NCBI RefSeq assembly: GCF_000002075.1
Contig: NW_004797353.1
Location: 279,677 to 343,676, forward strand
DNA length: 64,000 bases
DNA from: Aplysia californica
Taxonomy: Eukaryota
Direction of reading: 5' to 3'
The first letter of the stretch is position 1. Each line of letters begins with the position of its first letter. The position numbers were made by a program, and so were the translations under genes. The notes below the pieces were generated by a model, which did not search any database, had not been told where the DNA came from, and was given only the letters and a program-made list of their open reading frames with translations. This document shows positions 3,901 to 61,959 of the stretch, in pieces.

Positions 3901-6900
3901 ACACGCTTACAAGTAGTTATGACCGATCCCGATTATACACAAGGCATGCACAAACGCGCACTTTACTTTGCAGAGAGCTGTAGTGGATCTAGTAATCAAA
4001 ATTCTAAATATTAGAATTTGCTTCCAATTTCATTTCTTTTTTTTTGTCCTCTTGTGTTGCGTCCAGCCCTCCCCCCACCCCGGAGTGTGTCTTTTAAAAA
4101 AAATCAATAATCTCCCCCCATTCCGGAGTCCCGTACTTCACAGCACTCAGAACGCATGCAGGTTCATTGACCGGTCACAATGACGAGCCCGACAAAACGC
4201 TTGTATAACTTTCTTTTCTTTTTTGCCCCCCACAAGCGACAGCACAATGACGAACATTATTTTCATGGCGACACCACGTTTGTAATGCAGAACCTGCATG
4301 TTACAAATGTTGCGTATTCAGACTTTTAACAGACACATTTCTGAGATCTTGATTTTCCGGTCGAGCCTCGGAGTCACATACAATTCCGCTTGCCGCCATA
4401 GCCGCCTGTTCGCGTGAAACTTACTCTCACACTGGGAAAAGCCGAATTAACATCACAATTGCGTCCGCCAAAAATGAACTTAAAGACGTTATCGGATTTG
4501 GTTTTCAAATAATATTCGAGATCTTTTATGTATTTTCCCGCATCTCTGCGATTTTTTTTTTCAAATTCCCGGGTAATTCCCGAGGCCTGGCAGTCATTCT
4601 GCTCCCAGCAACTCTCTTTCTGATTGACCCGCTTTCGCAGTAGTGGAGTTTAGCGGAGGACAAGGCGGTAGCGGAAATCCGCTAAATAGCGGAATATTGA
4701 GACCCATGTTTAAGGAAACAGTGGAGGGTAGGGGGAGCAAAAAAAAGGGGGGGCCAATCGAGCTTGTTCTTCAAGAACCCTTTAACTTGGATCATGCACA
4801 ATTACTCCGAAAAGGGAGTGCAGAAAAAAAGTATTAAACACAGTATTCTGTAAAAAAAATAAATAATAATTCTAGACAGCTCATTTCCTAATAAGAAACA
4901 ATTTTAAAAAACAACAAAAAACAATGCTTTCCGGGACGCATTTCAAAGTAGCAATCAGAGATATGTGTATACTTCTAAACCAACATAACGTGCAAGAAAC
5001 ATCCCAGTGGAAACCTTTATTTGTGACAACTATAAATAATTCACTCAGAGGGCAGTACCGGGTGACATTCCATTGCAAACCTAGGAAGTGCTGCCCTGAT
5101 CATGGACAAATATTTGACAGAATTTCTTTGAAAACCCAAATATCCCCTTAAGCTATTCATATATTTAAGAAAGCCACTGTTCTGCTTCACTCACATTACT
5201 TCTGTGAGTAATTTCTAAAATGAAAACAAAATATTTTCAAACTACAAATTCGAATGAATTTTCTAACTACACAAAGAAAACTATCCATTCACTCAAACCC
5301 TCTAATGATGAATCACCCTTCTGAGCTGTCAAAGACACAAAAACGAACATAAAAGTAAAATGCTCTCGAAATATTAAATAGTCCCTTTAAACTGAACACA
5401 GTTAATCCTACAACTGCGGTAAAACGGTAAAAAAAATCCCTGTTTTTTTCATTGTCTATTTGAGTATGATAACCTCTTTAAACCAAAAAGCCAGCGAAAC
5501 TGGAAAAAAAAAAAAAAAACCAGTAGCCCTGTAGATTTGGGCTTAAGTAGACTCCACAGTAAGCATTTTTATCTTTACAAGTGTGCTGAAATGTACTACT
5601 CACCAGCCACTGCCAGAAAATGTGTTCTTTGTCTTTCCAGTCCAGCAAATGTTTCAGCTGCTCATTATCTTGCTCCAGCTCCTCCAACATCTGATCGAAT
5701 AAAGGAGAACATTCAAATCAATAGAGCTGTAGGACCATCCCATTGACAACGCAGTGAATATCAGCTTTTTTTTTAAGTTAGTGTTTTACGGCACTTGCAA
5801 CACAATAAGGTCATATAAGATTAGAGGTGTTACAAGAGAGTAACAAACACAAAAAAGAAGAAGGGGAGATAAAGACGACAGATGTTTGATAGGAAAGAAG
5901 AAGCAAACCGCACCAGAGCACCCGCCAACGACCCACATATCAGCTTTATTTTTATTTTTTTTAGTGCCCACTTTTCAAATTTCTGGTTCAACTATAATTT
6001 GCTTTCAAAGGAGGTTTTTTTTCTCTCTCTGTCCACTGATGCCATCTCAAGTGTGGGACTATCCTAAACTCCATCTAATGGTGAGAACAGAGCTGAATGT
6101 ATCCCACTTTGTTTTCACTGTAACCATAGACACTACGGTACACAGAGAAAAACTGAAGGTCAAACTCAACTAATATATTAGACATCAGGCTAACAGGAAT
6201 AATTTGCAATTTACTTTAAAATCTTCAATAACCAACATTATCTCGTATGTGAAAAATACAACTCACATTTTATAATCAAATGAAAAAGCTTGTACATACG
6301 TGCTTCATAGCCCCTGGATGTCTCAATAAGTACACCTCTAGAGTGGTCAAATGGTCAAGCTCTGGCTGCAGGTTAACACCTTTAGTGTACATATGAACCT
6401 GGACGAAAGAAAGAGAGAAAAATCATTTGACAACACGATTACATATAGCCAGTATTAAAAAACTGCATTTTACTTGACCCATCACATCCTCTTTCCACAC
6501 AAATTTTAGATCACATACCACCAAGAACAAAAAAGGAAAGATAAAAGTTTCCTACTATCTGTGATAATTTTTATATCAAATATCTATAATCACTATCATA
6601 TGATTATTAATTTGTACTGCTGTTGATTTTTTCATCTATTAACATTATACAAACATATCTCTATGAATGTCAAAATCTGCGATAAATTCTTCCATATGGT
6701 ATGAGATATGCATCTGATGTAACATGGCATTATTGCCAACTTTTATTTTTCTCATCATACTGAAATTCTTTTCTCAAAGTCATATACAATTTGATTTCTA
6801 TAAACAGCTTTAGCATCTCTGTAGTCGTACCAGCATGCCACATACTGCTGATACATTTACAAGACAGTAGAGCTCAAAGCACTTTCAAGTTTCAATTTTT

Positions 6901-9900
6901 TTTAAATACATAATTGGACCATGAATGGGACTGAAGATTTACGTACAGTGTAAAATATTTATACAATGATGCACTGAGATCATCAGCATCAATTTAAACA
7001 ATGCATCTCCATTATATCTATGATATGACACTTGTAAAAATGCTTACTGATCTAGTAATTTTTGCCATCTCCTGCTGAACAGCAAAAAGACGCCTAAGAG
7101 ATAGTTGCAGTTTCCCACACAGTACTAGCTGTTTCTGCAGCTCCTCTTTACTAGAGACAGTCGAACGGTGGCTTTCAGGTGGAGACTTTTCCAGCTCTGG
7201 AGTTTTTGACTGCATAAAAATAATACAATACGATAAAAAGAAAAAAACAACCCAAAGTTGATAGTAATAGATATTTAAAAAATTATAACTTTATCATCTT
7301 TATTTTCTCTTCAGGATATCCATGCAAATACACTCACACATACTTTTTAAAAATTACAATGGAGACGAGGGACTGACATAAAGGTATCATAAAATACAAG
7401 GACCCAAATAATAGCGTTTTTACTCTTTAAAAAAATACTACAAACCTTTTCAAAACAAATTAACAGCATCAAATTAAGTCAAAACATAACCCAAAATACA
7501 TAAAGTACCGGGGGGGGGGATATTGAACTGTATTTACCCTTGTCTCGATAAATGTTAACAAGTGTTGATACAAAGGGTTGGTTCGCTTCGAGATGACCTG
7601 ATCAAACAGTTTCTGTGAATGAACGACCCAGCCTACCGCCAGTAGGAGCTGACGACTCCCATAGGACATGTCCACCGGCAGCTGAGACAGTCCCGGATTC
7701 AAGTAGCCCCATTTCTGGAGCTGTGATTTCACCCTCTCAACAGCAGCAGCTGAAAATGATTACACAACACCTTTCAAAAGCAATAATCAATATCATTATC
7801 ATAAGCAGCCTACTGCAATTTCCACTTAAGGTGCCACTATCACTTTGACTGGCCAGAGACTCTGCTTTAAAAAAATACCCAAGTTTTTTTTCTGCCTTAC
7901 TAAAAGAAGAGATCTGAAATTTGCTTATGAACATTGGGTCTCTAGCCTATTTGTGCCAGAAGCTTGATCAAATTCACAAGTCATTTCTCTTTTGGTAAGT
8001 GAGAGCACTTATTTGAACTGGAAAGGGGAAGAAAGAATAAAATGGAAGTTTTAACAGTTTTACTGCATTTGCAAAACAAATACCTCACTAAAAGCCAAAA
8101 ATAAGAGGTGCTACTAGAGAGCAATACAAAGAAAGGAAGGAGAACAGACAATAAGGAAGATAGATTTTTTTATAGGAAAGAAGGAGCAAAGTATACCACA
8201 GCATCTATCAACCACCCACAGGTATTCCTTGCCCTGAAGGATCATTGGCTGCTCTGCCTAATCCAACAAAGATTCTGATTAGCTCAGAGGAGAGATAAGG
8301 ATGATAGATGTTTGATAGGAAAGAAGGAGTAAACCACACCAGAGCACCTGCCAACCACTCATCCACTGGAAATCATAGGTTTCCCTGATCCACAACACCA
8401 GACATTACTGCAGACATTACAGGCGAACAGGCTCCCAGGCTGCTTTACAATAGGAAGGATACAGATACTTGGCAAATGAAAAGTGTAGAAGAGCACAAAA
8501 GACATGGAGAAGCAAAGATGATACAAGTTTGAGCTAATCTCCCCAACACTAGTTTTAATAAGAACAGGCTATTAGACAAGTCACCCCTTAAGATCTTAAG
8601 ATCACCACCCCCTTCCCCCCCCCCCCCCCCCCCCCCCCCCTCGTCCTCTGCCAATTCCTCTCCAAAAAATAAGCATGGACAGTCTAAGCATGGACAGTTT
8701 TCTTTTCATCAGTACCTGTTTTGTTAAAAGTGACACGGCACTCCTTCCCATTAGGGGACTTTCCATCACAGTAGCAAATGATGTCATGCAGAAGCTCCCA
8801 CAGTGGCTCTATCTGGAATTGTAAACAATTTGGAAACATCATAGCTGGTGAAACAACATCTATAAAATAATATTTTTTTTCATCATAGCTTTTCCTTTAA
8901 GTCCATAAGCAGGCAATCTAATAACTATCGGGTGGCTTCTTTTTTTTTTTATAGACCAGATAGATACTTTGATAGAAATTGTGAGGCCCCCACCATACCC
9001 CACTACTGGCCTCCTTCACTCAAGACCATGCTCTCTTTTTCCATTCTGCTTTTAGACATATTATATCAAAAAGTGAAAAAGTGGCTGCCAAAAGTAATCA
9101 CTCTCTTAGAATATAAAGGCCAAAAATTCTGAAGTTAATAAAACCACAATATGTCATGGAATTAGAACTACAAAACACAATGTATTAGAATTAAGAGTGA
9201 AAGACAGCTGATATGATTTTCTATTTGTCTGTATAGAATCTGCTTTTTATTGTGATAATTTAATTTAGAAAAAAAAAATGGGTAAAGAATTAAACCTCTA
9301 TCGAAAATATGTCCTCCTCCTGTAAAATACTAATGGCTACTAACTGTTTCACCACCATACTGAATACAGAGGCTCATTTGGTATTTCTCTTGGTGTGTTA
9401 GTATGGCAATGTCACAGCTTTTAGTTTAGTTTTAGTAAGAGTTTTACGGCACTTGCAACACAATAAGGTCATATAAGTGCCGAAGATTAGAGGTGTTACA
9501 AAAGAGTAACAAACATAAAAAAGGAGGGGAGAAGAAGACGATAGACGTTTGATAGGAAAGAAGAAGCAAACCACACCAGAGCACCCGCCAACCACCCACT
9601 GTCACAGCTTTAAACACACACTTCACAAACATTTAATAAATAATACAAATGTAAATGTCAACATTCCATGAGCGAAACATTTTTTTACTTTTTGAATATT
9701 GGTTCAAAAACAAAAATAGTGGGAACTTTTTTTTTAAATTATAAAAAGGAAAGGAAACCAGGACCAAACCATTGAAGAGAGACTCAATGTAATGTATACA
9801 CACATTACCTTAGCATTCAAGAATGAAAAAAGTTGAAATTGAACATCTTACATTTTCTGGGGCAAAGAAACAGAAAATGCATGAAACACAAAAGTTGAAA

Positions 9901-12900: not shown

Positions 12901-15900
12901 ACAGCTCAGTGGATCCCAGAGCGTTGGTGGTTTGACAGGAAAATCCTGCCTGGTCCAATGCCCACATTGACCACTAACATGAGGCGTCTGACATCACCAA
13001 GCTTCCTCCTCTTTGCACGCCCTTGAGGTCATTCAGCGTGGCTGAGTCCAAACAAAGTCCAACTGCTGAGACTGAGGTCCTGTTGAGCCGGTCGAGTACC
13101 CATATCATGTGCCCAAACCGCAGAGTACAGCCAGCTCGTCTGGTGTTGAATCTGATAGACACGAAAATGACCAAGTACATTAAAGCAGGTATTGGTAGGT
13201 GGTATTGCTTTATTCTAGTCTAAGGGTCTAAGTGTCTCAGTGCTAATTAAAGGGAGGAAAGGGGGAGGGATGAGCATACAGACATGACCCTTTTGCCGCA
13301 GGTTGATCGGGTGTATTTGAAATGAAACTTTAATGTGTTGGCAAAGAATTAATTTGATAATTGACAGTTGTCCACAGCACAGCTCGCTGCAAAGTTCTAT
13401 GCTGTATAAAATTAAACACATAGAAACGAGAGTGTGTGTTAGAGAGACAAGAGACAGAGAGAAAGAGAGAGAGACAGAGAGAGAGAGAAAAAAAGAGAGA
13501 GGAGAGATTGTTTTAGTAGAGGTTTTACAGCGCTCATAACTAAATAAGGTTATACATACGAGCTTCAAGAGGTGGATGTCAACAGAAAAGTCCTTACAGG
13601 GAATCAGGCTTACTCTGCTCACCCCTCTAGCTTCAACAGCACAAAGTCTGCTTCGACTATCAAGGCACCCCGGAAATACTGAGCAACAAGAGTGTGACAA
13701 ACATAAAAAAGGAGTACAGGAAAATGACGATAGTAATAGTAAGGAAAAGGAAAGAAAAAGCAGCAGTTCCCTGTCGCAGTTCAGGCACAATTATGAGCAT
13801 AACATTGATGAATAAGCCTATTTACAATTCTACTGCGCATAAGAACATAGTTAATATCCCCCTTTGGGAATGACATAAAGACACTTCAAGTCAGTAGCAC
13901 CGCCCCAGGGATGAGAGAGGAGAGAGATAGAGAGAGGGAGGGAGAGATAGAGANNNNNNNNNNNNNNNNNNNNNNNNNNNNNNNNNNNNNNNNNNNNNNN
14001 NNNNNNNNNNNNNNNNNNNNNNNNNNNNNNNNNNNNNNNNNNNNNNNNNNNNNNNNNNNNNNNNNNNNNNNNNNNNNNNNNNNNNNNNNNNNNNNNNNNN
14101 NNNNNNNNNNNNNNNNNNNNNNNNNNNNNNNNNNNNNNNNNNNNNNNNNNNNNNNNNNNNNNNNNNNNNNNNNNNNNNNNNNNNNNNNNNNNNNNNNNNN
14201 NNNNNNNNNNNNNNNNNNNNNNNNNNNNNNNNNNNNNNNNNNNNNNNNNNNNNNNNNNNNNNNNNNNNNNNNNNNNNNNNNNNNNNNNNNNNNNNNNNNN
14301 NNNNNNNNNNNNNNNNNNNNNNNNNNNNNNNNNNNNNNNNNNNNNNNNNNNNNNNNNNNNNNNNNNNNNNNNNNNNNNNNNNNNNNNNNNNNNNNNNNNN
14401 NNNNNNNNNNNNNNNNNNNNNNNNNNNNNNNNNNNNNNNNNNNNNNNNNNNNNNNNNNGGGGGGGAAGTGTGCTTTGTTGTTCACCATTTATACATTGGA
14501 ACTTCAAAGCTAAATGTAAAAATGTACACTAGTAAGCTCCAAAATGGATTTTAAGCCATGGCGTTGATGTGGAATTTTATCCACCATATGCTCGGATAAA
14601 GTTTTTAAATCTATGAATCAAAAAGATTCAAATTTTATTTTTAAAAACTTGATTAAAGCATAAGAAATACATAATTTGTCTGCTCCACTAAAAAAGGACC
14701 TGAAATGTATAAATAAAATGTGTGCAAAAATAAAATAATTATTTCTAAAAATTTACCGACTCCACAGAAGGAAAACAAAATGCCTAACTCACAAAAAAAC
14801 ACCATTTCCAGCGCAGATGTATGAAAATAAAAGGCCTAACTCATCGACAGCATAGTGTCTAATGTGCTTGGATGCAAACTGCCTAACTCATTTTAATTTT
14901 TAAAATATATAAGGACAATGATCACGAAAGGAATTGATAAATTTATATATATATACACACACTGAAATGATGCTTTTCAATGTTGAAGGTGAACATATTT
15001 CAGAAAAATTGTGGCTAGAAGAGATATTAAGATGTTTTTTCTGTCTCCTGTACAATCACCCAAAATGAGTTTGGCCCTTCAATTATGAGCATGACGATAT
15101 AATCCTAATCCGTTGTTGCATTAATTGAGAGTCCGTCCTTTTCCCTTACACAAGCGAGCTCTGACTCTGAGCCAGAGCTCAGTGAGTATAAGTGAGAACG
15201 ATAAATGTTCGATTGGTCAAGGATCACTGCTCGTTCGGCGTTGTCCCCTGGTCTCTGCAGCCGGGCCAATTCGGCACAGGCGACAAATTGTAGTTGGTCA
15301 CTGTTGCGTCAGTACAAACATACTGGGCCTTTTTAGCAATCAAACACACCACCACCACCCCCCTCTCCCAGAATATATATGTATAAAAGTATCACTCAGT
15401 GTCTTTCCGTCTCTATTCACATATTATGACGGTGCATATTGACAAGAGCAAAAAAGCTGATGAGTAAGAGTATGAGCAGGCGGGAGAGACAGGAAAACGG
15501 ACGGGAATAGACGGGAAAGGAGGAAGAAGGGGGGGGGGTAAAAAAAGAAAAGTTTAGTTTTAGTTAGAGTTTTACAGCACTTGCAACACAATAGGTCATG
15601 AAAGTGCCAAAGATTAGAGGCGTTACATAAGAGTAACATTCAAACACAAAATAGGACTGGAGATAAGGACGACAGATGTTTGATAGGAAAGAAGAAGCAA
15701 ATCACACCAGAGCACCCACCAAACACCCACGTTAAAAGAAGGATTCAGGGAGAAATTTATCAGCACTGCATATTAGTGTCCGCCAGATGTTCACTGACTG
15801 AGGTCGTATTAATTTGCTGTCCAGTCATCTGACATCCCAACGATGGTTACAGTGCCACAATTTGTTCAGCACGTTTTCACTTGTTGACATCATTGTAAAA

Positions 15901-16054
15901 TTATCAGACAAATAATGGCACCACGTTATAGGGGTAAAATTCTTTTCCAAGGGGACGTTATATGGCGACATTTAGTCTTGTCTTGAAATTTCTTTATTAC
16001 TTGATGTTACGACCGAGTATAATAATGTCTCGCAGAGTCAAACTGCTCTTTGTT

Positions 16055-16094
<40 letters not shown>

Positions 16095-18702: not shown

Positions 18703-19163
18703 TGCAGTGCATCACCAGCCCGCTTGAATCTTCTACTTCACCCGTACACTCGACAGCTTCTCTTAAACTTCCTTCCAAACAATAATTCCATTCCAAACAT
18801 GTGTGGTGGAAAGTTAGTGGTTGGATGACGGCGGATGGATTCATGAGGATTCCAGGATTCCTGGATTAGTAAGAAACATTCAAACAGAGTGATGTCCCTT
18901 TACATTTTTAAAAACAAAAATTCTGAAATCAAAAAGCCAAGTCCCAATTTCAATTTAGATGGGGGTTTTTAGTAGCAATTTCTATCAATGAAAATCTGTT
19001 ACAGTAAGTATTGATTATAATTATGAATTAATGCTCATTTTACTATATGCAGTTGCAAAAGAAACTCAAAATTTGTTGAAGTTGAAGGTATTGTTTTGTT
19101 AATACAAAATCTTCCCAATTTTTTTCTGGTGTAGGCTTGGTGTCAACTTCCGTTTCAAACAAA
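18703..19163. promoter_or_regulatory. Bidirectional promoter shared by TEDC1 and ZNF830
   Basis: Divergent ATGs are 461 bp apart. ETS-like ACTTCC lies near both starts (about 18766 and 19146). AAAATGGC (YY1/Kozak-like) overlaps the ZNF830 ATG. Confidence 0.7.
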
Positions 19164-23277: not shown

Positions 23278-23325
<48 letters not shown>

Positions 23326-29300: not shown

Positions 29301-32300
29301 CCATGAATCTCCATGTCTCAACAGAGATTATGTTGACAAATGGAAGAGTCACAGCTTCACAAAGAAAAAGAAGGTGAGCATAGCATTCTTACAGGCCTGG
29401 TATAATTACTTAATGTTACAGAAGAAGAGAAAGGTGACACCCATCTCTGTAAGAGCAGAATCTCATTATACTACCCAAATGGTTCATTTGGACCGAACTG
29501 TCACCATTTCTTTTGTCTTAAGTATTTTAACATTTTACAAGTTTCTCATATTCATATTTTGATACCATTGACAGCATAGTAAGTAAACTACTGGGTATTG
29601 GATTAATTTTTCCCTTTTAAGCATTAGGCTATTTCTTGTGCACATCTTTACTTTCATCTTAAAGTTTTCCAAACATTTCTTGAAATGCAAAGAATATATC
29701 TTAGCAATCAGAAATAATGCCAATTTACACCTGCACATTCATTGACACTGACATGACTTGCATCCGCTAAATTGTGTATGGATTTAAAAATCAATTTTGT
29801 TGTGTATTTCATTGCCAGAGACATTGGCTCCTCTTTATTAGTATCCTCTTTAATAGTGATAGTCTTTCTACATAAAAAAATATGTCGATCTCTTTGCACA
29901 TATAACGTATAAATGTATTGGTGGTGGAAGTAATTTTTCAGTGCTGATGCTTAATGTTTGTTTTTGATATTTCAGGAACCTGCTGAGACTCCACTGGAGA
30001 CCGTACAGGATGAAGCTGTGGCGACGCCACTTAAAGAAATGCAAAATCTTCTGACTGTTACTGACTGCAAAGTAAGTATAAATGCCTTTAGAGTGTTAGG
30101 CTATGTGACGTGCAGATCACAACAGTGTAAAATTGATTTTCAGTTGTAGAATAATGTCTCTAAGAATTTACAAGTACACTGAATGGGTGAACTGAGTTTG
30201 ATACTCCGCTGCAGCAAATTGTATGCCCTTGGAAGGGGTATTTTTTCAAAAGGTATAAAAGGGACGGGTCTGGTTAGCCTACTTGACTGCACAGAGTGAA
30301 ATTGCTTCCCAGGAGGTTGAGAAAATTTATAATGCTTTGTTTTGGTGTATAGAAGGTAAAGGGTAAAGAGCATGTAGAAGCACTTTGAAAGTTTGCTTTT
30401 GCACTGGGATTAGGCAGCATTGCTGTATTTTTTTCTTTATTTTGGATTTTCTGTTTCAGAAACCTGTTGAAACAGAGATGATAATGGATGAAAATGCTGC
30501 TTCTATGCAGACGGAACATGATGAGGTAAGGCATTGAGTCATGATTTATTTTTGTTTTAGTAAGGTTTTTACAGCACTAACATCTACATAAGGTCATATA
30601 TGAGGGCCAAGGGGTGGATGTCAACAAAGAATAAGTCCAAACAGGGAATCAGGCTTACTTTGCTCACCTCTCTAGCCTCAACGGCACACAGTCTGCTTCG
30701 ACTATCAAGGCACCCCAGAAATAACAGTTCCCAAGAGAGTGACAAACATACTAAGGAAGTAGAGGAAAAATGACGATAGTAAGGATGAGGAAAGAAAAAG
30801 CAGCAGTTGCCCCTATGTTGTTTTCAATTAGGCCTATAGTATGATATGAATGATGGAGAATAGAAAATTGAAGCCTATTCATTTGAACACTTTTCAGCTT
30901 TTCAGATGTTCAAACCAGCACCTCTATATTTTTGCATTTCTTGCTTCTTGAAATAAGTTTTGAACTATTTTTTTAGGAGCAGATAATTGTAACTTTCCGG
31001 TTTGCTGCAAAATCCATGTCTTAGACACAGACAAGTGCAGACAATGTGGAGGCATTGAAAACTTATGTTTCTCTTCTTTTTGTTTCAGAGCATCAGTGAT
31101 GCCAATATTTCTGGCTTATTGTCAACCTCTGGAATGGAATATCTGGAGAATTTGCTGGAGGTAAGATCTTGTACATTCTTTTAGACAGTGGACCATATTG
31201 ATTTTTATTTTGCAAGGATATGAAAGTTGTCGATCAATGGAACAAAGTCTGGCTTTTTATTGCCTGACAGAGAAGTTCATAGTCAAGCGACAGAGTGTGC
31301 CAAAATATTACACTGCTATCTTGTAATTCAAATGATTAATTAAAGGTGAAATTATAAGGATTCCACTGTTGTAATAATAATGGTATAGCTGCTATTTTGA
31401 AATTATTAGTACTCACTATATTTTGTTTCGAGATTTTAAATCAAATTAGTTGACCTATCATCATTAGTTTATTTTTATTTAGAGTAAAAGTACACTTGTC
31501 TAGTTTTGACTGCTTTTTGTCATTTGTGTCAGTAGGCTCATTGTTGTTACCTTGTTTTACATTTTACCTAGGGAGAAGAAGATCAAGCTGACAAGAAAGA
31601 GGAGACAGGTATCCAAGAGGGACAGTATGTTGAGGTCTTCCTGTACGCCACTGGTGGGACCCGTCGCCAATTTAAAGGCATTGTAAGTCTGGGATTTCTT
31701 ACAAAACATTTGTTGTATTTGCCATAGAAATTACCTGGGTAACTTCTATTTGATGCTTGCCTGAACAAAATTAAATTGTTGACATACAATTCTCATACCA
31801 AACTTTGACATCTGGACATTAGCCTTCATCAACAAACCTACGGCACCTAAGGCTCAGGCAGGATGGGGTGACATGAAAGTCTTTTTAGTTTTAGTAAGGT
31901 TTTTACGGCGCTCGCAACAGCGTAAGGTCATATGATCGCCAAGTGGTGGATGTCAACAGAGAAGGCCAAACGGGGAATCAGGTTCACTCTTCTCACCTCT
32001 CTAGCCTCAACAGCACATAGTCTGCTTATACTATCGAGGCACCCCAGAAATAGCAGTTCTCAAGAGAGTGATAAACATACACTAGAAGTAGAAGAAAATG
32101 ACAATGGTAAGGATTAGGAAACGAAAAGCAGCATTTTCTCCGTGTTGTTTTGGCACAGTATGAGCATGTCATTGATAAATCAGCCCATTTACAATTTTAC
32201 TGTGTATAAGAATGTGTTAATATCCCCCCTTTGTGAATGGCTTAAAGATACTTCAGTTAGTAGCACTGCTCTAAGGGGTTGATGAAAGTCTAAGCATTCA

Positions 32301-35300: not shown

Positions 35301-38300
35301 TGCAACAATGTGATAAAGAATGACCTCTTGTGGGCTGCACACGTTCAGAGTAAACAACATAAAGAGGTATTCCCTTTTCTTTCTTTGTTGATTATGGTTT
35401 TAATTGTAGTTGTAAATTAATTTAGTGTGTGCAATCTCTTTGTTGTCTTTTATCATCATAAAACACACAGTGACAAAATCTTCATCCTTTTTTACATTTA
35501 AATCACCATGTTGCTGGTTTCTTTAGTTTTTGCATAAAATGTGACTTCAGTTATAGTGGCATGCATTTTAAAAATAAAATTACTTGTGTGAAGATTTAAA
35601 CTTTAAAAAAAAAAGTACCCCCGGGGCAGTGCCACTGACTGAAGTGTCTTTAGGCCATTCCCAAAGGGGGGACATTTCTCCTTCAAGCATAGTAGAAATG
35701 TAAATGGGCTGAGTCATGTCACGCTCATAACTGTGCCTGATCTACAACAGGGAACTGCTGCTTTTTCTTTCCTGATCCTTACTATTGTCATTTTCCTCTA
35801 CTTCTCTTGTTTGTTTGTCACTCTCTTGTGACCTGCTATTTTGGGGTGCCTTGATAGTCGAAGCAGACCTTGTGCTGTTGAAGCTAGACAGGTTAACAGT
35901 CTAAGTCTGATTCCCTGTAAAGACTTCTCTGTTGACACCCACCCCATGGCGCTCATATGACCTTATGCAGTAGCGAGCGCCGTAAAACCCTCTACTATAA
36001 TTTTTTTTAAAATAATGAACTTTAAAAAGGTAGGCTAATGTGTCTAAGGTTAGAAAAAAGTTTTATGTTACAAAGTGATAAAGTATTCAGCCCTATTATT
36101 TGTTTTTCTTTCCTTCGGCAAAAGATGTCATGTTGTGCTGTTTGAGAAAATGTGTTTTCTGTTTTCTTGTTGCTTTGATATTTCCTAGGAGCCTTAATTA
36201 ATGATACGGTATTTGCACATCATTTCAGAGGGCTATTGCCCTAAAGACACAAGGACCTGCCAAGCCTGCTCATTTGGAAGCCACATCAGTCAAACGAAAA
36301 GCAGATGCTGTTGGTGGGGTTGACCCTAAAAGGAAGAAAACAGGTGCGTTTCTGCTGTCTTTTTATCAGGAGAGGTAATTCATTATCATCATTTGATTTC
36401 CTTTCTCCGTCTGGATCACAGAAAAGACCAACAGCGAACGTTTTCCAGTTTTTTTCCAATTTTGTATAATAGCTTCTTGACATTATTTCATGTCTTTCCA
36501 CTTTTCTGTACATTTTTCTCAGTGACTTATCTCCAGGTTCAAAGTGGCCCTCCCTAGAATATTTTACTGATCATTGTCTGGGTGGGTTTTTTTTACTGGC
36601 AGCGCTCTGAGATTATTAATCATTTTTTGGTACTCTATTATTATTTCAAATTTCCATCCTGTTCCATGAAGATTTGCTTCTCCTGTTCACACACATGACG
36701 CGGGATATTGATATACTCAGATTACAGCAAGTCAAAGTTTCAAATTGTATGGATTTGAGACTTGGAATGCGTCTTAGACTTGCATAAAGAGGATTTAGGT
36801 TTTCTTGAACAAGTGTTTAAGGAAGTTACTGAGGATCAGATGGACAGACAAGGTCACCAACGAGGAAGTATTAAGAAGGAGACAGAGCCCAGTCAGAGAT
36901 GAGGTGGGAAGAAGGCGTTAGCGATGGATTGGACATAGTCTCAGGAAGTCAAGCAGCTGCATAACAAGGAAAGTGTTAGATTGGAATCCAAGGGTAAGAC
37001 CGTGTGGAACCTGGAGAAGAGTCATGGAAATGGATGTACAGAAAAGTGGGAAGACATTGAGTGACATCAAGTGACTAGGGATAGGGAAAGGTGGAAAGTG
37101 TGTATTAGCGGCTTACATCCTGATCCAGGGTGAGAAAGGCAATGATGATGATCCTATTGTGAGTCTCAAGACTACGCTTATCAAGTTTCCCCTCCCCTTT
37201 ACCTTTATAGCTTTCCATCTCTGACCGAGTTCTCCCGCCTTTGTCCTTACGCACCATTACATTGTGACCACACCAGGGCGTAGTGTAGAACACAGCAATT
37301 AAGATTCAGTCTGCTTTGCAAATTCGAGAGTAGAGACAACTGCTGCTATGGTCAGGGAAGAGTTCACAGTTTAATGTGATCCTGCCAGGAGCGAATTTGT
37401 AGGCCATACCCACCCAGTATGTGATGTAAGTTTAGGTGGAGAGCTCAGATGCAAGTGCGATGTTAGGAGAAAACAAACGCGTCTGCGTTTTCACACCTCG
37501 GTGTGATCCCGTCCGGGGCAAACATTGTACCGTTTCATCGTGACTTACTGCGCACATGTGATCACATTTACTAGAGTGGTTGATCTGTGACACAATGGGT
37601 AGTTCAATGATAGCAAATTTTCTTTCTAGGTTGATCAGCTGTGCCTGCCCGCATTTTTGTTCTGTAAATTATTATCTGAAATGCGGGATCTTAACCGAAT
37701 GTAGACCTTCAGAGTGAATCAGAGTGGGATCTTAAGGGTGACTTTTGTAAAGTAAAAATTCTGTTTTCTTAAAACAGCGGGATCTTTAGCGAACCGGGAT
37801 CGTAAGCGATGGGATCTTAAGTGGAGACTACTGTATACAATTTGAAGGTTTGAAGGTATGTGTAGGTTTTCTGCATATGTGCGTTGATTGGAGCAAATGA
37901 GTCACTGTGTGTTTATACCTGACATTTAAGAGTTGTTGTAAAGTGCACATTCCTCAGCAGGTGATAAGAGGATGTCACTAGCAGTGGCTACTTCTTTTAT
38001 TTCCCCTCTGTTGTTCCTGTCAGTCTGGCTGGCTCTTTCCCTACAATAAATGACCGCTATTGTATTGATGTGCTGTTTTTTACGCAAACGAACAAAGCTT
38101 ACACCTCCAGTAATGACAAGATAGTGAAGATCCTACCAGCAGTTACTTGTAAGTTAAATAAAGGGCAGGCCTTATTATTCTATCCTTTGCAACTTTTTAA
38201 AATTTATCCTCACTTCTGGTATTTTATCTGCATTTCAGAAACAGCCCAACCTGTAAAATCAAAAAGGTAAATATAGTAATTGTTTGTCTGATTACAAGTT

Positions 38301-41300
38301 AGAATCTATACATTTATGTTCCTGTGTTGATATCTTGATTTTCGTTGTTACTGGTGTTTTACTAGCTCTGTTATTTATATATGGGATCTTATTTGGGCTA
38401 ACCAGGTAACAGTCTCTTGGGGGGAGGGGGGTTGGAGGATGGGGGAGATTTACTCTTTGGCATTATTTGATTGCTCTGTATGGATTATGAAACCGATTTG
38501 TAAACTAACAACCTCGAAGCAAAAGAAATAATTCATGCTACAAGCAGCCTCAAGTGATGTGTCTTTGTGTAGCCGTGCAAAGTTCGGTGTGCTACGTCTC
38601 ACATGAAAGAGCATTAGGAAAATCAGGTCTAAATATAAAATATTTTCAGCTGTCTTTGTAAGCTTGTCATGTGTGTGTTCTACAGACTGTTAGAAGTGGG
38701 AGCAAGTTATTTTCTCTGTGGATCGATTCCATTTAATGTTCTTGAACGCTACGATAATTCTGATTAGATAGGCTACCTTAATGCATTGTTTTTGCTGCAC
38801 ATATTCTGTCTGTTCCTACTATAGATTAAATTGTATCTAGAACTAAATGTCCAGCTCCAATAATAAACTGATTTGTGCTTTCAGTTTGCCTTCAGATTTC
38901 TTTGATGATAATGCTCAGCGCCAAGAGACACGAGAGAAGGCAAAAGCAGCGTTTTTAGCAGGGTATTCTTCTTCAGAGGAAAGTGATGATGATGATGAGA
39001 ATGATGATGATGATGAGAATGATGATGATACGGGTCAGACAAAGACACAACCAGATTCTTCCTCATCAGCAGCTGCAGCAGCAGCAGCATCAAAAAAGGG
39101 CCTTCCTTCAGGTACGCCGAAGTATATATTTTCTATTAAAAGATAAAGAAATTATATTAGGTCTACTCGAAGTGTAAATGGTAAATGAACTTTATGCATT
39201 CATTCCTTCTTTTATTTTTAAAGGAAAGGACTGAAAAGTAATCAACTTAGAATTAGGCAATGCTCCTTCGCATCAGAAAACACTGTTTGTGTTGTATTGC
39301 ACTACCTTAGAATTACAAAGTTTTATCTGCTCATTATCTAGTTTTGAGAAATTTGACCTAAAAATAATTTTGTGTCTCACTATATGTCAAGCTTTTTCAA
39401 ACTTTGTAATTCTAAGGTAACGATTAGTCAACATTTTGCGCCCTGTTGTGCTGATGCATATTATTTACAAGGCCAATGCCTATCTGAAAATACTGATTGC
39501 CCAATTCAAAGGAGGAAGAAAAGGATAGATGAGAAGCGTTAAAACTCAGTTTTCTATGCTTTCTATTTCAGATTTCTTTGACCCTGGCGAGGAGCCATCA
39601 GGCTCAGAAGAGAAACCAGAGTCCCAGCAGAACAAGAAGATGTCAGAAATTTTACCAGAAGGCTTCTTTGATGACCCTAAGATGGATGCTAAGGTAAATG
39701 GAACAAAAGTCTATGGTTGTATTTGTATGTAGAAGAAAGTACTGTGAAAAAGGACAGGGTCGTCTTACTCAAAAAGATAACAAGAAGTTGACCCCAAAAA
39801 GTTATCTTGTTTTAGAATCTGTCTTAATATTTTTTTATGAATTGCTTTTATGAGTTTTTAAATCTGACTAGGCTGTTGATAAAAGCTTATAATACTCGTA
39901 CGGGTAGTGTTTTATGTGGGCGGTTGGCGGGTGCTCTGGTGTGGTTTGCTCCTTCTTTCCTATTAAACATCTATCATCTTTATCTCCCCTCCTTTTTTAT
40001 GTTTGTTACTGTCTTATAACACCTCTAATCTTCTGGCGCTCATATGACCTTATGCAGTTGAGAGCGCCATAAAAGCTCTACTAAAACTAAAAAAGAGTGT
40101 TTTATAAATGCAATGTATTATTATTATTATATCATTCTTGCAATAGCTAATTCAGTTTCAGAGCTGTGCAGTGCATTTTCACAGAGTGAGATCAGTTAGC
40201 CTAAGATGCAAAACATTTCTCTCATTTGTTCATAGTGTTTGTTTACTGTACTAACCCAAAGAGTTTGTTATACATAATAAATAAAACCTTTTTTTCCCCC
40301 AAAACCATCTCTTTTCATCAAATTGAATAAGGAAGTTTAGGTGTTTTCACTCACCCATAGACACAATTTAGTCTTATCATCAATCCTGCATTTTTTATTG
40401 CGTACTTTTCATGGCAAGGGTTCTTACTGCTGTGTCCTATGCTATGAATACCAAATTTATCTCTGTGCATTTTGTGGATTCTCTTACCCTCACATCTCCA
40501 TTCTCAGGTCAGGAAAGTGGAGTACAAAGACAAAATGGAGGAGGAGTGGGACCTGTTTCAGAGAGCCATGAAGGAAGAAGCTCATGTAAGTATGGGGTTG
40601 TTTTTGTTTGATTTGTGGTGGCATGGTCTGCCTTTCCATTTTCCTCAAATCTCAAAGATTGCTAGAGAGTTAGATGGGCGGGTGACATGATACTGCCCCC
40701 AACTGTTTTCTGTAAGACTTGACAGCTGTTCATATGACCTTGTGCAGTTGCGAGCGCCGTAAAACCCTCTACTATTAAAAAAAAATAAATAAATGACAGT
40801 TGTGTTCTGCTTTCAATAATTTCATGCTCAATAGAGAATTTTGGAAAGGGACTCAAGTACAATTGACTTGTGGGCTTTGTTCTCATTACTATTTACAAAT
40901 CCAGTCTTGAAAATTAATAACTTTGCTGTAGAGTTGGCAAATCTGTGAAGAGCAATGCTGAAAATCTATACTTTCTGTATATCATAAAATTTTTTCTCTT
41001 TAACTCCTTCGTTGCATTATGACATAGGCTACCTGGTACATATTGAAAATTCATAATTTTTAGCACTGAGCTGAACCATGTACGTCACGGAAGTGGGCAA
41101 AATTTGTCGCTCCTGATTGTTTATGTGACGTTACATGTATGTCATGATAATAGCCTAGCTCTAATTCTTCTGTACAGAGTTTTAGCCACAAACGCTGCAT
41201 AGATTCATATTTGAAATAAAAGATGCGCGTATTGGTACCAAATTTGCTAATATTATTTTACTGCTAGGCTTGCAAGCAATCGATAAATACAGATCTAGGC

Positions 41301-42915: not shown

Positions 42916-43540
42916 ATTCATCGGAGAAAGAAATTAAGACAAAACTATGACAATAGAATAAACAAATGTAAGGAAAATCTCGTCCTTATTCTGTGGAACA
43001 ATGTTGTTTGCTACTGCCCACTGCCATGCAAATGTTACTGAAATCAGTCATGCTGGTAATGAAGTGAGAGGAATGCTCAGACAATTTGAAGGTGGACCAA
43101 GCTGTCAGTGTTAGGACAGCCCTTGCTGTGTAATCGTGAGCTAAGCGATATAACTGATGAAGACCATAACGCCAAGAGGTTTGCTGTTGTTGTTTTTGTC
43201 ACGATTGACTGATGGTGTTGACAGGAACAGATGCAAACATGTATTCTGACATGAGATGGAAACTGATGAAGGTACAGCCGTGGTAAGGGAGAAATCATGA
43301 TCTGAAAACTGTCTTGAGTGTTTCTTTGATTTTTTACTTGAATTGAGGCTGTAATTTACTGAAGAAACAGGTAAAGGGTAAGTTTGAAGTATTATCCATA
43401 AGGGCTGGGGGGGTTTTAATATAACACTTTTAAACATAGTTCATACAGAGATACTAAAAAAATACAGTTTGCCATCTGTAATATTTGATTTTTTAAATTC
43501 ATTTGTGAGGCATGCTGACAAAATGAGTCAAAGTAAGCTG

Positions 43541-47700: not shown

Positions 47701-47754
47701 AGAACAAAGGATTCAGTAGTTCCAAGAATCTTTGTAGAGCATGTAGCAAAGATA

Positions 47755-54400: not shown

Positions 54401-57400
54401 CTAGAACCATTAACACAAGAAAGCAGCTTAACATAAAGACAAAATATTTTACTTTCAAGGCAAAGCAAATGTTCATAATTTTATATATACCAAACATAAA
54501 AGGGAGACTTGGTATTAAAAATTAAACTATAAAAAATGAAAACCAACTAAATAATTAAAACGCTGAGCGGTTCTTTGGCTCAAAATCGAGAGTGTATAGA
54601 TTGAAAATTTTCGTTTGAATCTTATTATATATAAGACTACATTCTAATGATATTGAACAATTTTAACTCTTCAAAAGAATGCCGACAGACCCAATGACTA
54701 ATCTTTTATAATACAGATGAAAAGGGAATAAGATTCAAGGATAAAGAAGGACAGAAAAAAGGATGTAAGCCCACCAAGTCGGCAATGAAATGTAATAATA
54801 AAAATAATAATATTAATAATGAAGATCATTTCTTTCGCGCCCACTCCCGTGTAAACACAGCTCTGGGCGCTTTACATCATGCACGAACAACATTCACGCA
54901 CGCGACACTAGTCACGGCAGAACAATTTCTCTTGACTTTGGTGGACATTCGGTGCTATTTAACCAGAAAATAGTATAATTTATAACTGTACCACCAGCCC
55001 AGCTATACCACCAACTTCATGCTCGTCCCACACTTGGTGGTATAACGGCATTTGACTGAAGGCAACGTAAAGTATTAGAAACACACAGAGGAACAGCAAC
55101 ACTTACATTGGCTCATCTCTGGGGTTTGTCTTGGATGATGAAACAGACTCCGAAGATACAACTTCTTCAAAGTTTCCAACAATGAAGGGAGTGCTTCCTT
55201 GTGCCAGTGCTAGACAGAAAAAGAATTGTACTTCAAGAAAACGCTAAAATATAAAACACTAAAAAAAAAATCTTAATACACGTACACATGAGTATCAACA
55301 TCTAAAATGGGAATAACTGCCACATCAAACTTTCAAAAATTAAACCTTTGTCACTGAATCATCTAAAAGTGCAATCTTAAAGATAGTATGGGGAAGGTAG
55401 TGAAATTCCACACCAAACTTTATAAATTTCAGCGTGAGCTGCATATTTTGGGAAATTCCTATCTAAATTATTTTTTTTTAATATATCCGCAACAATTTCA
55501 ATTTGCATCACTGTAGAACTTTCCAACGCAGGTAATGGCATTTATTTCCAAGATTTTTAAAATTTTGCGTTCCATTTCAAAATTCTCATTTTGGTAGAGA
55601 TGAAGGATTGGAAATAGGAAAACAGACAAATCAAATAAAAATGAGTTAAGTGTTGAGTATAGAAATGGGAGGGAAAAAAACAAACACACTGAAAACATAA
55701 ACATAATAAAGAACATTTTTCTCAAAGTTCAATGTCAAACAGATTGTAGGGTGTACAAGTGCTGTGCGTCTGGAATTCCCCATTACACGACACATCACAT
55801 CCCATGGATAAAACCATGCCTTCATAACAGAAACACATATTTTTTCTCTGAACAGCTGTGACCCCTTTCCATATTAACATAGCTTTGCAGAATTCCCTTC
55901 AGAAACTACAAAATACACAAGTAGGTTCCAACGATTTACATCATTGGACATTAATATATAGCTGGCAAGAATACTGAGTAAGCATATTATACATGAACAG
56001 TCCTAACAAAAACTTGGGTTGAAGCAATTTCTCAAGACGTTTAAACATGCCATGCACAACCCCCCAGAGCTGGGGATTTTATGGAAATTTAATTAGCTAT
56101 TCCTGTGGCACCTTAACTCTTCAAACAACAGCCTGTGCCAGCAACAATTTTTCCCCTCAGAACTACTTGTATCTATTTCCTTCAATGACAAAATTTTAAA
56201 TAGAGAGTTTTACTAATAATTATAGCCATGACAACTATTCATTCCGACATGGCAATACCCTTTTATATAAAAGGATAAAAGTGGCTGTTAACAACAAAGC
56301 CTGAAAACTTTGAAGGACTTCAGTGCAAGCAAAAACAAACAGAAAAATTGTGGAATTCTTTCCTTGACATTAAATGTAAGAAAGTATATAATACCGAACA
56401 AATGGCAAGCCAGAAAATTTTTTAAAGCAGGAAACGTCTCCTGCTGGAACATGTATATCCCCGTCATACAGGAGTCTTCGGGTACATAACAAAGAATACT
56501 TTCCTTTTTATCATACTGGATTGTCTGAACTTTACTTTTTGGGTGATTGGAAGGTATCATCTTCTTCTTTGCCCAATGTAGTTTTCCGTCTTGTCCTACA
56601 ATTAAATACCCGTCATCACGTTGCTTCAACTTCTAGTCTCTTCTCAAAACACAGAAACACAGACAATCGAACTGAGCCATTGATGATTTATTTATAGTCA
56701 CCAACCACCCGTCCTTTGGTGCTGTTTAAGCCTTTTTATCCCTGTCTTTCACTTTATTCTTCCTTCCTTGCTTATAAGTCGAGTATTTTTTCACCAGAAA
56801 TTTACCCATACAACTTATGTAGCAACAGCACAGCTTCCAACACCTTCACCTACCAATGACAGCGGTATTGTGATAAAAATAAACTGCAGCTACCTGCTTC
56901 ATTTCGATCATACACCACCCATCCCGGCACACCAGCTCCCTGGTGGGCGACTTCTCCAAGGATCTCCATCCAGTTGGTGACGTTGACCAGTGCGGTTCTC
57001 TTAGGACTCATCTGTTTTCGTTTTTTGACACGAGATGACGACTGCACATCAATCTGCACAGGTACATTCACCTCAGAGACGGCATGTGGAGTGAATTCAG
57101 GAACCACCTGCTCAGAAACCTTAAAAAAAACAAAAGTATTTTTTTGAAAATTTGTGAAGCTTACATATCACCTTTGCCAGTACAACAATCTAAAAGGCGC
57201 TGTACAGAATCTTGCAGAGAGAGAAAGAAGAACAGGAGAATTATTGAACTCGTCAGCAGAGAAATTCAAACATGTTCTTTCATGTCTTTATTCTTCAACA
57301 CCATACGTGAGACTAACATACATAACCAAGGCACGAGCGCCGTAAAACCTTATACTATACATACTACTAACCAAGGCAACAATGAATACAAATGCATGAG

Positions 57401-60400: not shown

Positions 60401-61959
60401 CCTTAATCTTTAAATCAACCTTCCCCCTCTCCAAATCAACAAGATAACAATCCTAAAAGAGTCACCTCAAAAAGTCAAAAATCAAGTCCTGACAGACAAT
60501 TCATGACTCCAACTTTTGAGAGTTAAAGCCATGTGTCCTGACAATGACAACTAACAACTTGAACAAAGGGCGTGAGACAAAAATCTCCCGACATAATCAT
60601 TAACAGTTATTTTTCTTTTCTGTATATTCCAGTGCTCCTCATAGTGTGCCATATACTTCTGTAAAATAACAACAAAGCAGAGAAAAAAATGTAATACTGC
60701 AAGACTAAAAGTAAAAGGGGAGCAGGAATAAAAATACAGACAGTTTAACAAGATACTCACGCTATCATCGGAACTGAAGGTCACGAACTCTCTATTCCAC
60801 GTGCCTGAAAGAGAAAAATAATGAAGCAGGTTAAAGAATGAATAGATGAAACTAGAAAATCACAATAAGTCACATATACAGACTTAAAAATTAGTTATCG
60901 AGAGTACATTGTTCAACACCTGCCACATACTGACAGCATATACAAGCAAATGATTTAATAACAGGTTAAAAGTCTAGAGACTAATAAAAGAGTTAGTTTG
61001 GACGTGTGGCTCAACTTTTTGTAACACACATCGACGGCTAGCACATACAGTGGCATTATCATCATCATCCATTAAGCTCAACAATAAGACAAAGACAGAA
61101 AATAGTAGGCGGGTAGCTGTGGAGTGAAAATAAATAAGATCCTCTTCCTTTCTTTCTTCGTTCTCAGCTTTTTTTTCGGTCTGTCTTACTTTTTCTCTTC
61201 ACTAATTGATGTGGGTGGTTGGCGGGTGCTCTGGTGTGGTTTGCTTCTTCTTCCCTATAAAACATCTATCGCCCTTATCTCCCCTCTTCTTTTTTATGTT
61301 TGTTACTCTCTTGTAACATCTCTAATCTTCAGGCGCTCATATGACCTCATGCAGTTGCGAGCGCCGTAAAACCTCTACTAAAACTAAACTAAAACTCACT
61401 AATTGATCGTCATTGTGTATATGAGCTTCTCTTTGCCAAGACATACAAACGAACAAGAAAATACGGAGTTTGACCTTGCTACTCTACAGCATCTGACCTG
61501 CTTGTTCAATGTCTTGTACACTGGAGGTGAGGAGCAGGAGGTTAGGGTCTGCCTGTGTACCCAGCTCAGAACACATGAAGCGTACAGTGTTCTCCAGGTA
61601 GGCCATGTAGCTGATGATACGCTGCATCATCACAACCTGACAACACACGCACACGGAATGAATTTTATTCAGAATAATAATTTAAAACGTTACAAACTTT
61701 TGACACGGTTTCCAACTAAATCTGTCGGTCAAGCAAATTGCAAAAATGCGGTAGGTGAAGTCACTGAAAATTGTTCGTGTACCTTAGAATCATCTTGAAA
61801 AGCTGTAATATTTCTATTAAGACATCAAGTTTGTATAGAGCATTAACATTTTCAATAGAAAGTGAAGAAAGAGAAACACAAAAAAACAAGCAAAAGAAAG
61901 AAAGGATTAAAAAGTCTACTTTTGGAGAATATGAATATTTGCAGTTCTTTGTAATAATG

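What the first reader, a model, noticed from the sequence alone, without database searches (positions are those of the whole stretch)
5769..61395. Two sibling short retroposon families with fixed 5' ends but no tRNA head
Seen: family A (about 180 bp; 5769, 9422, 15552, 39916, 41982, 61211 plus fragments) and family B (about 395 bp; 13510, 30551, 31883, 32954, 35618) occur roughly once per 5 kb. Most copies have 9-12 bp TSDs and (CTAAAA)n tails, the signature of target-primed reverse transcription. Full copies start at the same point: GTGGG[TC]GGTTGGCGGGTGCTCTGG for A and CCCCGGGGC[AG]GTGCCACTGACT for B. They are therefore defined transcripts, not random LINE truncations. The families share a pyrimidine-rich core of about 70 nt (TTCTTTCCTA...CTATCGTC...TGTTTGT[TC]ACTCTCTTG) and the 3' tail, but differ in the head and spacer. 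I see no pol III A/B boxes. Inference: a modular SINE-like system that uses a LINE-derived internal promoter or a self-processing 5' end and is mobilised by an I/Nimb/Ingi-group LINE.
Basis: partly seen in the sequence, partly recalled or inferred. Interest (0 to 1): 0.7.

Follow-up and report, generated by a model that had tools for sequence, protein, structure and literature searches.

The report
Snail SINEs without a tRNA head
Two very abundant short jumping elements in a sea-slug genome end in the same hairpin as a resident LINE retrotransposon, which likely copies them; they lack the tRNA-type promoter of ordinary SINEs, and the longer one probably descends from the front end of such a LINE.

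Summary
Confirmed. Families A (180 nt) and B (396 nt) are real retroposons with TSDs and fixed 5' ends. Sampling gives about 130,000 and 35,000 copies or fragments. They share a pyrimidine core and a 3' stem-loop.

I found the likely partner: an I-group (probably Nimb) LINE with ORF1 and an endonuclease-RT-RNase H ORF2. It matches the tail at 41 of 42 nt. Two tRNA-headed SINEs use the same tail; this scan noted the tail sharing earlier on other DNA of this genome.

A and B have no tRNA, 5S or 7SL head, no pol III boxes and no HDV-like or hammerhead ribozyme; controls for tRNA and HDV fired. The ribozyme idea is not supported.

The LINE-promoter idea has partial support for B only. B starts with A plus a C-run like the LINE. 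Its oldest subfamily resembles the LINE 5' UTR in order, at roughly p 0.01 against CT-rich DNA; a profile search did not confirm this. A's 31-nt G-rich head has no identified source.

Closest known: mollusc LP-SINEs and bipartite non-autonomous LINEs. Promoter activity is untested, and Repbase/Dfam could not be searched.

The parts
5769..5936 (-). Family A, full length, older tail version, 11-nt TSD
8047..8219 (-). Family A, old decayed copy (about 72-76% to other copies)
8286..8361 (-). Family A, 5' fragment (head and start of core)
9422..9599 (-). Family A, full length, older tail version, 12-nt TSD
13510..13912 (-). Family B, full length, in a GA-repeat tract; no exact TSD found
15552..15730 (-). 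Family A, full length, older tail version; no exact TSD found
30551..30824 (-). Family B, 5'-truncated (aligns from about consensus position 140)
31883..32275 (-). Family B, old subfamily (G-run followed by ATATTAACA), 10-nt TSD
32954..33346 (+). Family B, young subfamily, 9-nt TSD: head, shared core, B-specific spacer, tail
35618..36000 (+). Family B, full length, second young subfamily type, intron of a ZNF830-like gene
39916..40093 (+). Family A, full length, young tail version, 10-nt TSD
40730..40789 (+). Tail-only insertion of the shared stem-loop
41982..42112 (+). Family A, 5'-truncated, older tail version, 10-nt TSD
57334..57372 (+). Extreme 3' end of the partner LINE family (its own terminal repeat), 11-nt TSD
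61211..61394 (+). Family A, full length, young tail version, 12-nt TSD: 31-nt G-rich head, pyrimidine core, tail

Best explanation
A and B are non-autonomous retroposons without a small-RNA head whose 3' stem-loop matches the 3' end of a resident I-group (probably Nimb) LINE, which likely copies them, and B likely descends from an old 5' UTR of such a LINE that would serve as an internal RNA polymerase II promoter. Shown: TSDs, fixed 5' ends, shared core, shared tail, no tRNA/5S/7SL head, no known ribozyme, and a tail change in A. Inferred: target-primed reverse transcription by the LINE's ORF2 protein after binding the tail hairpin. Inferred with less certainty: B is a drifted LINE-5'-UTR-plus-tail element of the LP-SINE or bipartite type. 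A shares B's core but carries a different 31-nt head, so it probably arose by head replacement or shortening, and its promoter would lie in head plus core. Untested: transcription from these sequences and which polymerase does it.
For: Partner: a 6-kb LINE family (L096, L097, L098, L100, L110, L189) has ORF1 with three CCHC knuckles and a 1226-aa ORF2 with endonuclease, RT and RNase H. Its 3' end matches the A/B tail at 41 of 42 nt, and an older copy has the missing base. TSD-like matches of 11-13 nt flank 6 of 7 full-length LINE copies tested, some in low-complexity flanks, like the SINE TSDs. Tail stem: 84% of cells paired over 14 tails, 2 of 7 pairs change on both sides, slid controls 27-57%; fold z -2.7, -2.9, -3.3 for three tails, -0.7 for the fourth. 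No small-RNA head: ARAGORN at relaxed thresholds and B-box scans find family C's tRNA head but nothing in A or B; Rfam to E 10 finds no relevant family; the genome's own 7SL does not match. LINE-like 5' end of B: an A precedes the C-run in 17 of 22 B copies and 17 of 17 LINE heads, against 39% background (p 0.0003). Old B has a G-run motif identical to the LINE's at 12 of 13 nt. Old B positions 140-209 align to LINE 5' UTR 106-171 with score 46: 0 of 1000 dinucleotide shuffles, 0 and 3 of 1000 window shuffles, 3 of 1955 genomic windows, 2 of 156 CT-rich windows reach it. Old B is closer to the LINE than young B (46 vs 33; 66 vs 57 outside the motif used to select it). Published precedent: LP-SINEs with a Nimb-type head and CT-rich tract (PMC4758252).
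Against: The B-to-LINE similarity is weak. A nucleotide profile of old B gives negative bit scores on the LINE heads once composition is corrected, and no LINE 5' UTR among the 28 best rows shown for 1.26 Mb of masked loci. The global alignment is reached by 58 of 1000 window shuffles; the G-run motif alone by 98-151 of 2000; 12 pairs were tried. The best UTR match is to the second LINE family (L091 type), while the best tail match is to the first. A's head matches no LINE 5' end (best 13-46 per 300-1000 shuffles for the body). B lacks the hairpin of the LINE head. No LINE carrying the A or B head was found in 40 LINE stretches or four pattern searches (83/85). The two apparent head-plus-LINE loci are LINE insertions into B copies (L093 with an 11-nt TSD; L183). 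The LINE ends in (TAC)n or (TACA)n, not (CTAAAA)n. Poly(A) RNA reads cover A and B on both strands with read-through from flanks and no pile-up of starts, so no independent transcript is shown.
Confidence: 0.55

Rival explanations
1. A and B have no internal promoter. They come from a few source loci transcribed from outside promoters (pol II, or upstream-type pol III), and all copies start at the source's start site; the tail alone makes them mobile.
For: No promoter motif is identified in A. Few subfamilies in series, each with a tight consensus (A 4.4, 9.5, 17.9% divergence; B 3.8, 4.9, 9.1, 10.3%). Tail-only pieces with TSDs show that little beyond the tail is needed for insertion.
Against: A's first 35 nt stay essentially unchanged over three subfamilies while the tail changed. 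Two young B subfamilies of similar age differ at several sites. B's start resembles the LINE's start. About 130,000 copies are hard to get from one locus (inference).
Confidence: 0.22
2. A and B are pol III SINEs whose head comes from a small RNA that is too diverged or not yet catalogued in this lineage.
For: Nearly all SINEs have such heads (PMC4758252 introduction). One-mismatch A-box-like strings occur in A and B. Two tRNA-headed families share this tail.
Against: No B box within one mismatch, no tRNA fold at relaxed thresholds, no Rfam family and no 7SL match, while family C passes these tests. Both elements contain runs of 4-6 T, which by established knowledge stop pol III (consensus).
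Confidence: 0.13
3. A and B are cut out of host transcripts by a self-cleaving or processing signal at their 5' end, which fixes the first base.
For: B's first 135 nt fold better than shuffles (z -2.2). LINEs of this genome do use an HDV-like 5' fold. The elements are abundant in host poly(A) RNA.
Against: No HDV-like, hammerhead or other Rfam ribozyme in A or B with working positive controls. A's 5' part does not fold (z -0.3). Over 1,000 reads per run continue upstream through A's first base. No compensatory change seen in B's head across subfamilies (by eye).
Confidence: 0.07

Closest known systems
LP (LINE promoter) SINEs of molluscs: Lsa_2, Hdi/Hmi_LP, Sgl_LP, Oco/Oed_LP, pectinoid MESC SINEs (Matetovici et al. 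2016, PMC4758252; read: passages, sections 9 part 1 of 2, 10 and 12, supplement file 4 part 1 of 5 plus term searches; figures not held)
   Same: No leading tRNA head; start with a C-run; CT-rich tract behind the head; TSDs; short terminal repeats; tail shared with tRNA-headed SINEs; the scallop tail resembles this tail by eye. The host LINE's head has the same layout as the scallop LP head (by eye).
   Different: Published LP heads are recognisably similar to the first 68-70 nt of Nimb-17_LMi. B keeps only the start, a G-run motif and a downstream core, without the hairpin; A has no such head. The LP families listed in section 10 are from caenogastropods, abalone and bivalves.
Bipartite non-autonomous LINEs (RIME/NARTc, RTE-N, Vingi-N, R2 derivatives; Kojima 2018, PMC5786205; read: parts 2-4 of 5 of the text, supplement term search)
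   Same: Short, non-coding, LINE-type 3' end, expected pol II transcription, exchange of tails and heads.
   Different: That paper lists only RTE, Ingi, Vingi and R2 as sources. Here the partner is I-group/Nimb-like, the 5' part matches no extant LINE closely, and B has a 105-nt spacer with no match in either LINE family.
Nin-DC SINE and other tRNA SINEs with Nimb-type tails (family C here; Aca-Nin-DC-SINE as cited in PMC4758252; bivalve V and Meta SINEs in PMC11481361, passages read)
   Same: Same 3' stem-loop and likely the same LINE partner; CT-rich middle.
   Different: They have a tRNA head with perfect A and B boxes. A and B do not, and their bodies do not match C. That family C is the published Nin-DC SINE is inferred from a shared motif with the Lottia Nin domain, not from its consensus.

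Membership tests
Non-autonomous non-LTR retroposon (SINE in the broad sense) | Short, interspersed, high copy, variable-length TSDs, 3' simple repeat | tested here: met
Non-autonomous non-LTR retroposon (SINE in the broad sense) | 3' tail shared with an autonomous LINE of the same genome | tested here: met
   41 of 42 nt to L097; stem covariation; terminal repeat differs
tRNA-derived SINE (SINE2) | tRNA-like head with A and B boxes | tested here: not met
   ARAGORN at three thresholds and box scans negative for A and B, positive for family C
7SL-derived SINE (SINE1) | Head similar to 7SL RNA | tested here: not met
   Host 7SL genes fetched; head scores 12-17, reached by 126-448 of 500 shuffles
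5S- or snRNA-derived SINE (SINE3, SINEU) | Head similar to 5S rRNA or a U snRNA | tested here: not met
   Rfam to E 10 on one near-consensus copy of each family, and to E 5 on the window, gave no such family; host 5S and snRNA genes were not fetched
LP-SINE | First 70 nt homologous to the conserved Nimb-type LINE 5' end | tested here: inconclusive
   B: same first bases and G-run motif, no hairpin, weak statistics. A: no match. Tested against host LINE heads; the published heads were compared by eye only
LP-SINE | CT-rich tract behind the head, tail shared with tRNA SINEs | tested here: met
LP-SINE | Head acts as promoter (proposed, untested in PMC4758252) | not testable with these tools
   Poly(A) reads uninformative
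Bipartite non-autonomous LINE | 5' and 3' ends both match one autonomous LINE | tested here: inconclusive
   3' end met. 5' end: no close match in 40 LINE stretches or four pattern searches; remote similarity of old B to a second LINE family
Ribozyme-headed retroposon (Ingi/RIME, R2 type) | HDV-like self-cleaving fold at the 5' end | tested here: not met
   Rfam and descriptor negative for A and B; positive control L184 E 0.00046
Nimb clade (the partner LINE) | Two ORFs; CCHC knuckles in ORF1; endonuclease, RT, RNase H, CCHC in ORF2 (I group) | tested here: met
Nimb clade (the partner LINE) | RT groups with reference Nimb elements in a tree | not tested
   No named Nimb reference sequences were at hand; the label rests on domain layout and on head and tail resemblance to published Nimb-related SINEs
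Already catalogued repeat (Repbase, Dfam, SINEBase) | Consensus matches an existing entry | not testable with these tools
   Libraries not available. PMC5786205 names CALSINE3, a CORE SINE, so a sea-hare SINE series exists in Repbase; family motifs were absent from the two supplements searched

The most novel reading that the evidence does not exclude
Family A, about 2.5% of the sampled DNA, runs on a new minimal internal promoter: a 31-nt G-rich head plus a pyrimidine core that comes neither from a small-RNA gene nor from an intact LINE head. It would be a SINE class defined by a de novo promoter, with B as the transitional form from a Nimb 5' UTR.
Probability: 0.25. Interest if true: 0.65.

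Novelty: new variant of a known kind. Interest (0 to 1): 0.42.

Why it matters
SINEs are usually defined by a pol III promoter taken from a small RNA. In the sampled DNA the most abundant of the three short families measured lacks one, and it sits beside tRNA-headed SINEs that use the same LINE tail. That makes a built-in comparison for asking how a headless element is transcribed. The LP-SINE promoter proposed in 2016 was left untested in that paper, and a phrase search found no follow-up. Intact partner LINE copies (full 1226-aa ORF2) and near-consensus A, B and C copies make reporter and retrotransposition tests direct. The tail borrowing itself is familiar.

Tried and rejected
7SL origin: suggested by a recalled resemblance, rejected against the host's own 7SL genes. 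Degenerate tRNA fold in B's head: not found at relaxed thresholds. HDV-like or hammerhead head: rejected with controls; the descriptor also rang on one Nimb-type head (L092) and missed a second copy of the control family (L185), so it is rough. Bipartite origin from an extant LINE: L093 looked like B 5' half + LINE + B 3' half but is a LINE inserted into B with an 11-nt TSD; L183 is likewise an insertion. Search for a LINE with the exact A/B terminus: 367 and 24 exact tail matches in non-A/B context; the 30 and 24 loci read were tail-only insertions or rearranged A/B copies, none a LINE. Search for a third LINE family with an A- or B-like head: the 30 of 1,527 and 30 of 142 matches read held old B, the two known LINE families and unrelated DNA. 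Protein search with the LINE C-terminus returned only that family. Sequencing-run search listed no RNA holder on record; three poly(A) runs of one study were laid and could not show start sites. Metagenome scan for the B head: 0 matches. Protein atlas gave no answer. The Nimbus paper was not held. Nine literature searches listed no description of these two families; subscription journals, Repbase Reports and figure alignments are outside what was searched, and 4 of 5 parts of the PMC4758252 supplement PDF were searched by term but not read.
Full report
OBSERVATION. The 11 named copies are present. Self-BLAST and a consensus scan add two A pieces (8047-8219, 8286-8361), a tail-only piece (40730) and a LINE tail fragment (57334). 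Searches of the own genome returned 40 scored copies each at 93-100% (A) and 90-100% (B) identity, out of 5,996 and 5,650 first-look candidates. Thirty loci of each gave consensus elements of 180 and 396 nt with unconserved flanks. In 40 stretches of 10 kb at round coordinates, mostly on large scaffolds (335,677 non-N bases), there were 57 A, 15 B and 22 family C hits, fragments included. That scales to about 132,000 (100,000-171,000), 35,000 (19,000-57,000) and 51,000. Exact head 22-mers number 13,949 and 3,152 genome-wide with reversed controls at 0; the sample predicted about 11,600 and 4,600 (5 and 2 hits).

TSDs AND 5' ENDS. Exact TSDs of 9-12 nt flank 7 of the 11 named copies. With one mismatch allowed, 28 of 31 full A and 17 of 22 full B copies have one, mostly 11-13 nt, against 19 of 229 random sites. 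Among non-target copies with an intact tail and some body, 93 of 114 A and 22 of 35 B start within 10 nt of the consensus start; in the 40-stretch sample alone 32 of 40 and 6 of 12. The longer family C reaches its start in 12 of 38. So the start is fixed. For a 180-nt element this shows a defined RNA start, not an internal promoter.

MODULES. A is a 31-nt G-rich head, a pyrimidine core (about 32-108), a short linker and the tail. B is a head of about 147 nt, the same core, a spacer of about 105 nt and the tail. Core homology is firm (score 84, best shuffle 43 of 500). A has three subfamilies at 4.4, 9.5 and 17.9% divergence (63, 52 and 17 of 132 copies). The head is essentially unchanged; the older two carry a different tail with compensating stem changes. 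B has subfamilies at 3.8, 4.9 and 9.1% (52 copies) and an older one at 10.3% (21 copies selected by a motif).

PARTNER. An endonuclease-domain search and 40 fetched stretches gave two related I-group LINE families. Both have ORF1 with three CCHC knuckles and a 1226-aa ORF2 with endonuclease, RT, RNase H and a CCHC motif, 716 of 1226 residues identical between them. One family ends in the A/B tail (41 of 42 nt) followed by (TAC)n or (TACA)n rather than (CTAAAA)n. The other has a more distant version of the same hairpin. Over 14 tails the 7-bp stem is paired in 84% of cells with two doubly changed pairs; related sequences can exceed those shuffles, so this supports but does not prove the fold. 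The other RNase H-bearing families sampled did not end in this tail. 'Nimb' is my label from domain layout and resemblance to published Nimb-related SINE ends; no tree with references was built. Of 210 tail hits in the loci then held, 95 followed A, 57 B, 25 a LINE and 33 something else, mostly family C. Family C is a 517-nt SINE with a tRNA head, perfect A and B boxes and a Nin-like domain. RNA reads show a fourth, tRNA-B-box-bearing neighbour of the tail (one run's table).

WHAT THE HEADS ARE NOT. Not tRNA: ARAGORN at three thresholds and box scans are negative while family C is positive. Not any Rfam family to E 10. Not 7SL, tested against the host's own genes. Not an HDV-like or hammerhead ribozyme: another LINE of this genome (L184) hits an HDV model at E 0.00046 and my descriptor, A and B hit neither. 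Both bodies hold T4-T6 runs, which by established knowledge terminate pol III.

WHAT B'S HEAD MAY BE. Both LINE families begin with the same 70-nt head: A, five C, a stem, a G-run, an A-rich loop and the stem's partner (z -3.4). By eye this is the layout of the scallop LP-SINE head in the supplement of PMC4758252. B also begins with A plus a C-run (17 of 22; LINE 17 of 17; background 565 of 1,447; p 0.0003). Its old subfamily has a G-run motif matching the LINE's at 12 of 13 nt; that motif class occurs 1,527 times against 7 in the control, and of 30 loci read 21 were old B, 8 LINE heads and 1 neither. Further on, old B 140-209 aligns with LINE 5' UTR 106-171 (score 46; 0 of 1000 dinucleotide shuffles, 0 and 3 of 1000 window shuffles). 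Genomic windows reach that score in 3 of 1,955 cases, CT-rich ones in 2 of 156. Young B scores lower (33), as descent would predict. Against this: composition-corrected profile scores are negative, the global alignment is reached by 58 of 1000 shuffles, 12 pairs were tested, the match is to the LINE family with the more distant tail, the hairpin is missing, and no LINE with B's head was found. I put descent of B's head and core from a Nimb-type 5' UTR at about 60%.

A'S HEAD. It matches nothing tested. A 10 of 11 nt match to a motif that precedes the CT tract in one LINE UTR is visible, but the body alignments are reached by 13-46 shuffles per 300-1000. Its origin is open.

RNA. Three poly(A) runs of one study carry 12,500-21,600 reads on each element, on both strands, most running on into other sequence, with no place where many molecules begin. 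This is what copies inside host transcripts give, and it says nothing on independent transcription.

MECHANISM AND RIVALS. Most likely the LINE ORF2 protein binds the tail hairpin and primes reverse transcription at a nick (inferred from TSDs, the tail match and established LINE-SINE biology). Transcription most likely uses a LINE-derived internal pol II signal in head plus core (inferred, weaker). Rivals are source loci with outside promoters, an unrecognised pol III head, and 5' cleavage.

KNOWN AND NEW. Working like LP-SINEs (PMC4758252) and bipartite non-autonomous LINEs (PMC5786205) is likely. Membership is inconclusive for B and not shown for A. Nine paper searches listed no description of these families, but repeat libraries could not be searched and elements this abundant may well be catalogued. 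The host is a gastropod, a sea hare according to earlier notes of this scan; family C's Nin-like motif fits a mollusc. An earlier finding on other DNA of this genome covered the shared tail and the tail swap; what is added here is the LINE itself and the tests on the heads. Verdict: real, a new variant of a known kind, interest 0.42.

Noticed in passing
L091:521-590, L097:9013-9083 (minus), L110:903-970: Both Nimb-type LINE families share a 70-nt head whose C-run could pair with the G-run inside the loop of a 9-bp stem (a possible pseudoknot). The scallop LP-SINE head shows the same stem with different letters (by eye). The loop holds a TATA-like string. Possibly a conserved RNA structure or promoter; not in the Rfam tests run here.
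   Followed up: partly
L184:8185-8246 (minus): A different LINE family starts with an HDV-like ribozyme fold (Rfam E 0.00046, below gathering score; descriptor positive). It shares a 12-nt string with the Nimb-type head (11 of 2000 shuffles).
   Followed up: partly
L191-L220, L244-L267, window 40730-40789: Many insertions consist of the 60-nt tail alone, with TSDs, starting at the foot of the hairpin. The patterns used select for this, so a truncation hotspot is not shown.
   Followed up: partly
L104:8550-9079 and other loci: Family C: 517-nt tRNA-headed SINE with CT-rich middle, Nin-like domain and the same tail; about 51,000 copies or fragments by sampling; none seen in this window.
   Followed up: partly
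L041:1553 (reads laid): Loose read ends show a fourth family in which a tRNA-type B box lies directly before the shared tail.
   Followed up: no
L155, L167, L200, L260, L262: Internally deleted A and B copies joining head or core directly to the tail, some with TSDs; possible template jumps during reverse transcription.
   Followed up: no
L096:6609-9736, L093:1182-7129: Tandem 3' fragments of the LINE behind a full copy (L096), and a LINE inserted inside a B copy with an 11-nt TSD (L093).
   Followed up: partly
window 27070-29562 (+): 830-aa stop-to-stop frame with no Pfam hit; looks like a DNA-transposon gene by eye.
   Followed up: no
window 44317-46508 (-): Broken transposase-like frames (weak DUF4371 hit); an inverted copy pair 4215-4666 / 43546-43982 at 74% identity lies nearby.
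   Followed up: no
window 46616-47250 (-): Reverse-transcriptase fragment (RVT_1, E 5e-8), by eye DIRS-like and unrelated to the partner LINE.
   Followed up: no
window 7472-7759 (-); 35193-40690 (+): Exons of a TEDC1 gene and of a ZNF830/ZNF380-like gene; several A and B copies lie between or near these exons.
   Followed up: no
window 54793-54890 and 62003-62106; 22901-23300; 19374-19471 and 23588-23685: Another two-copy short repeat next to a (TAA)n tract; a 203-nt tandem duplication; and a 98-nt exact duplicate beside a 100-N run, possibly an assembly artefact.
   Followed up: no
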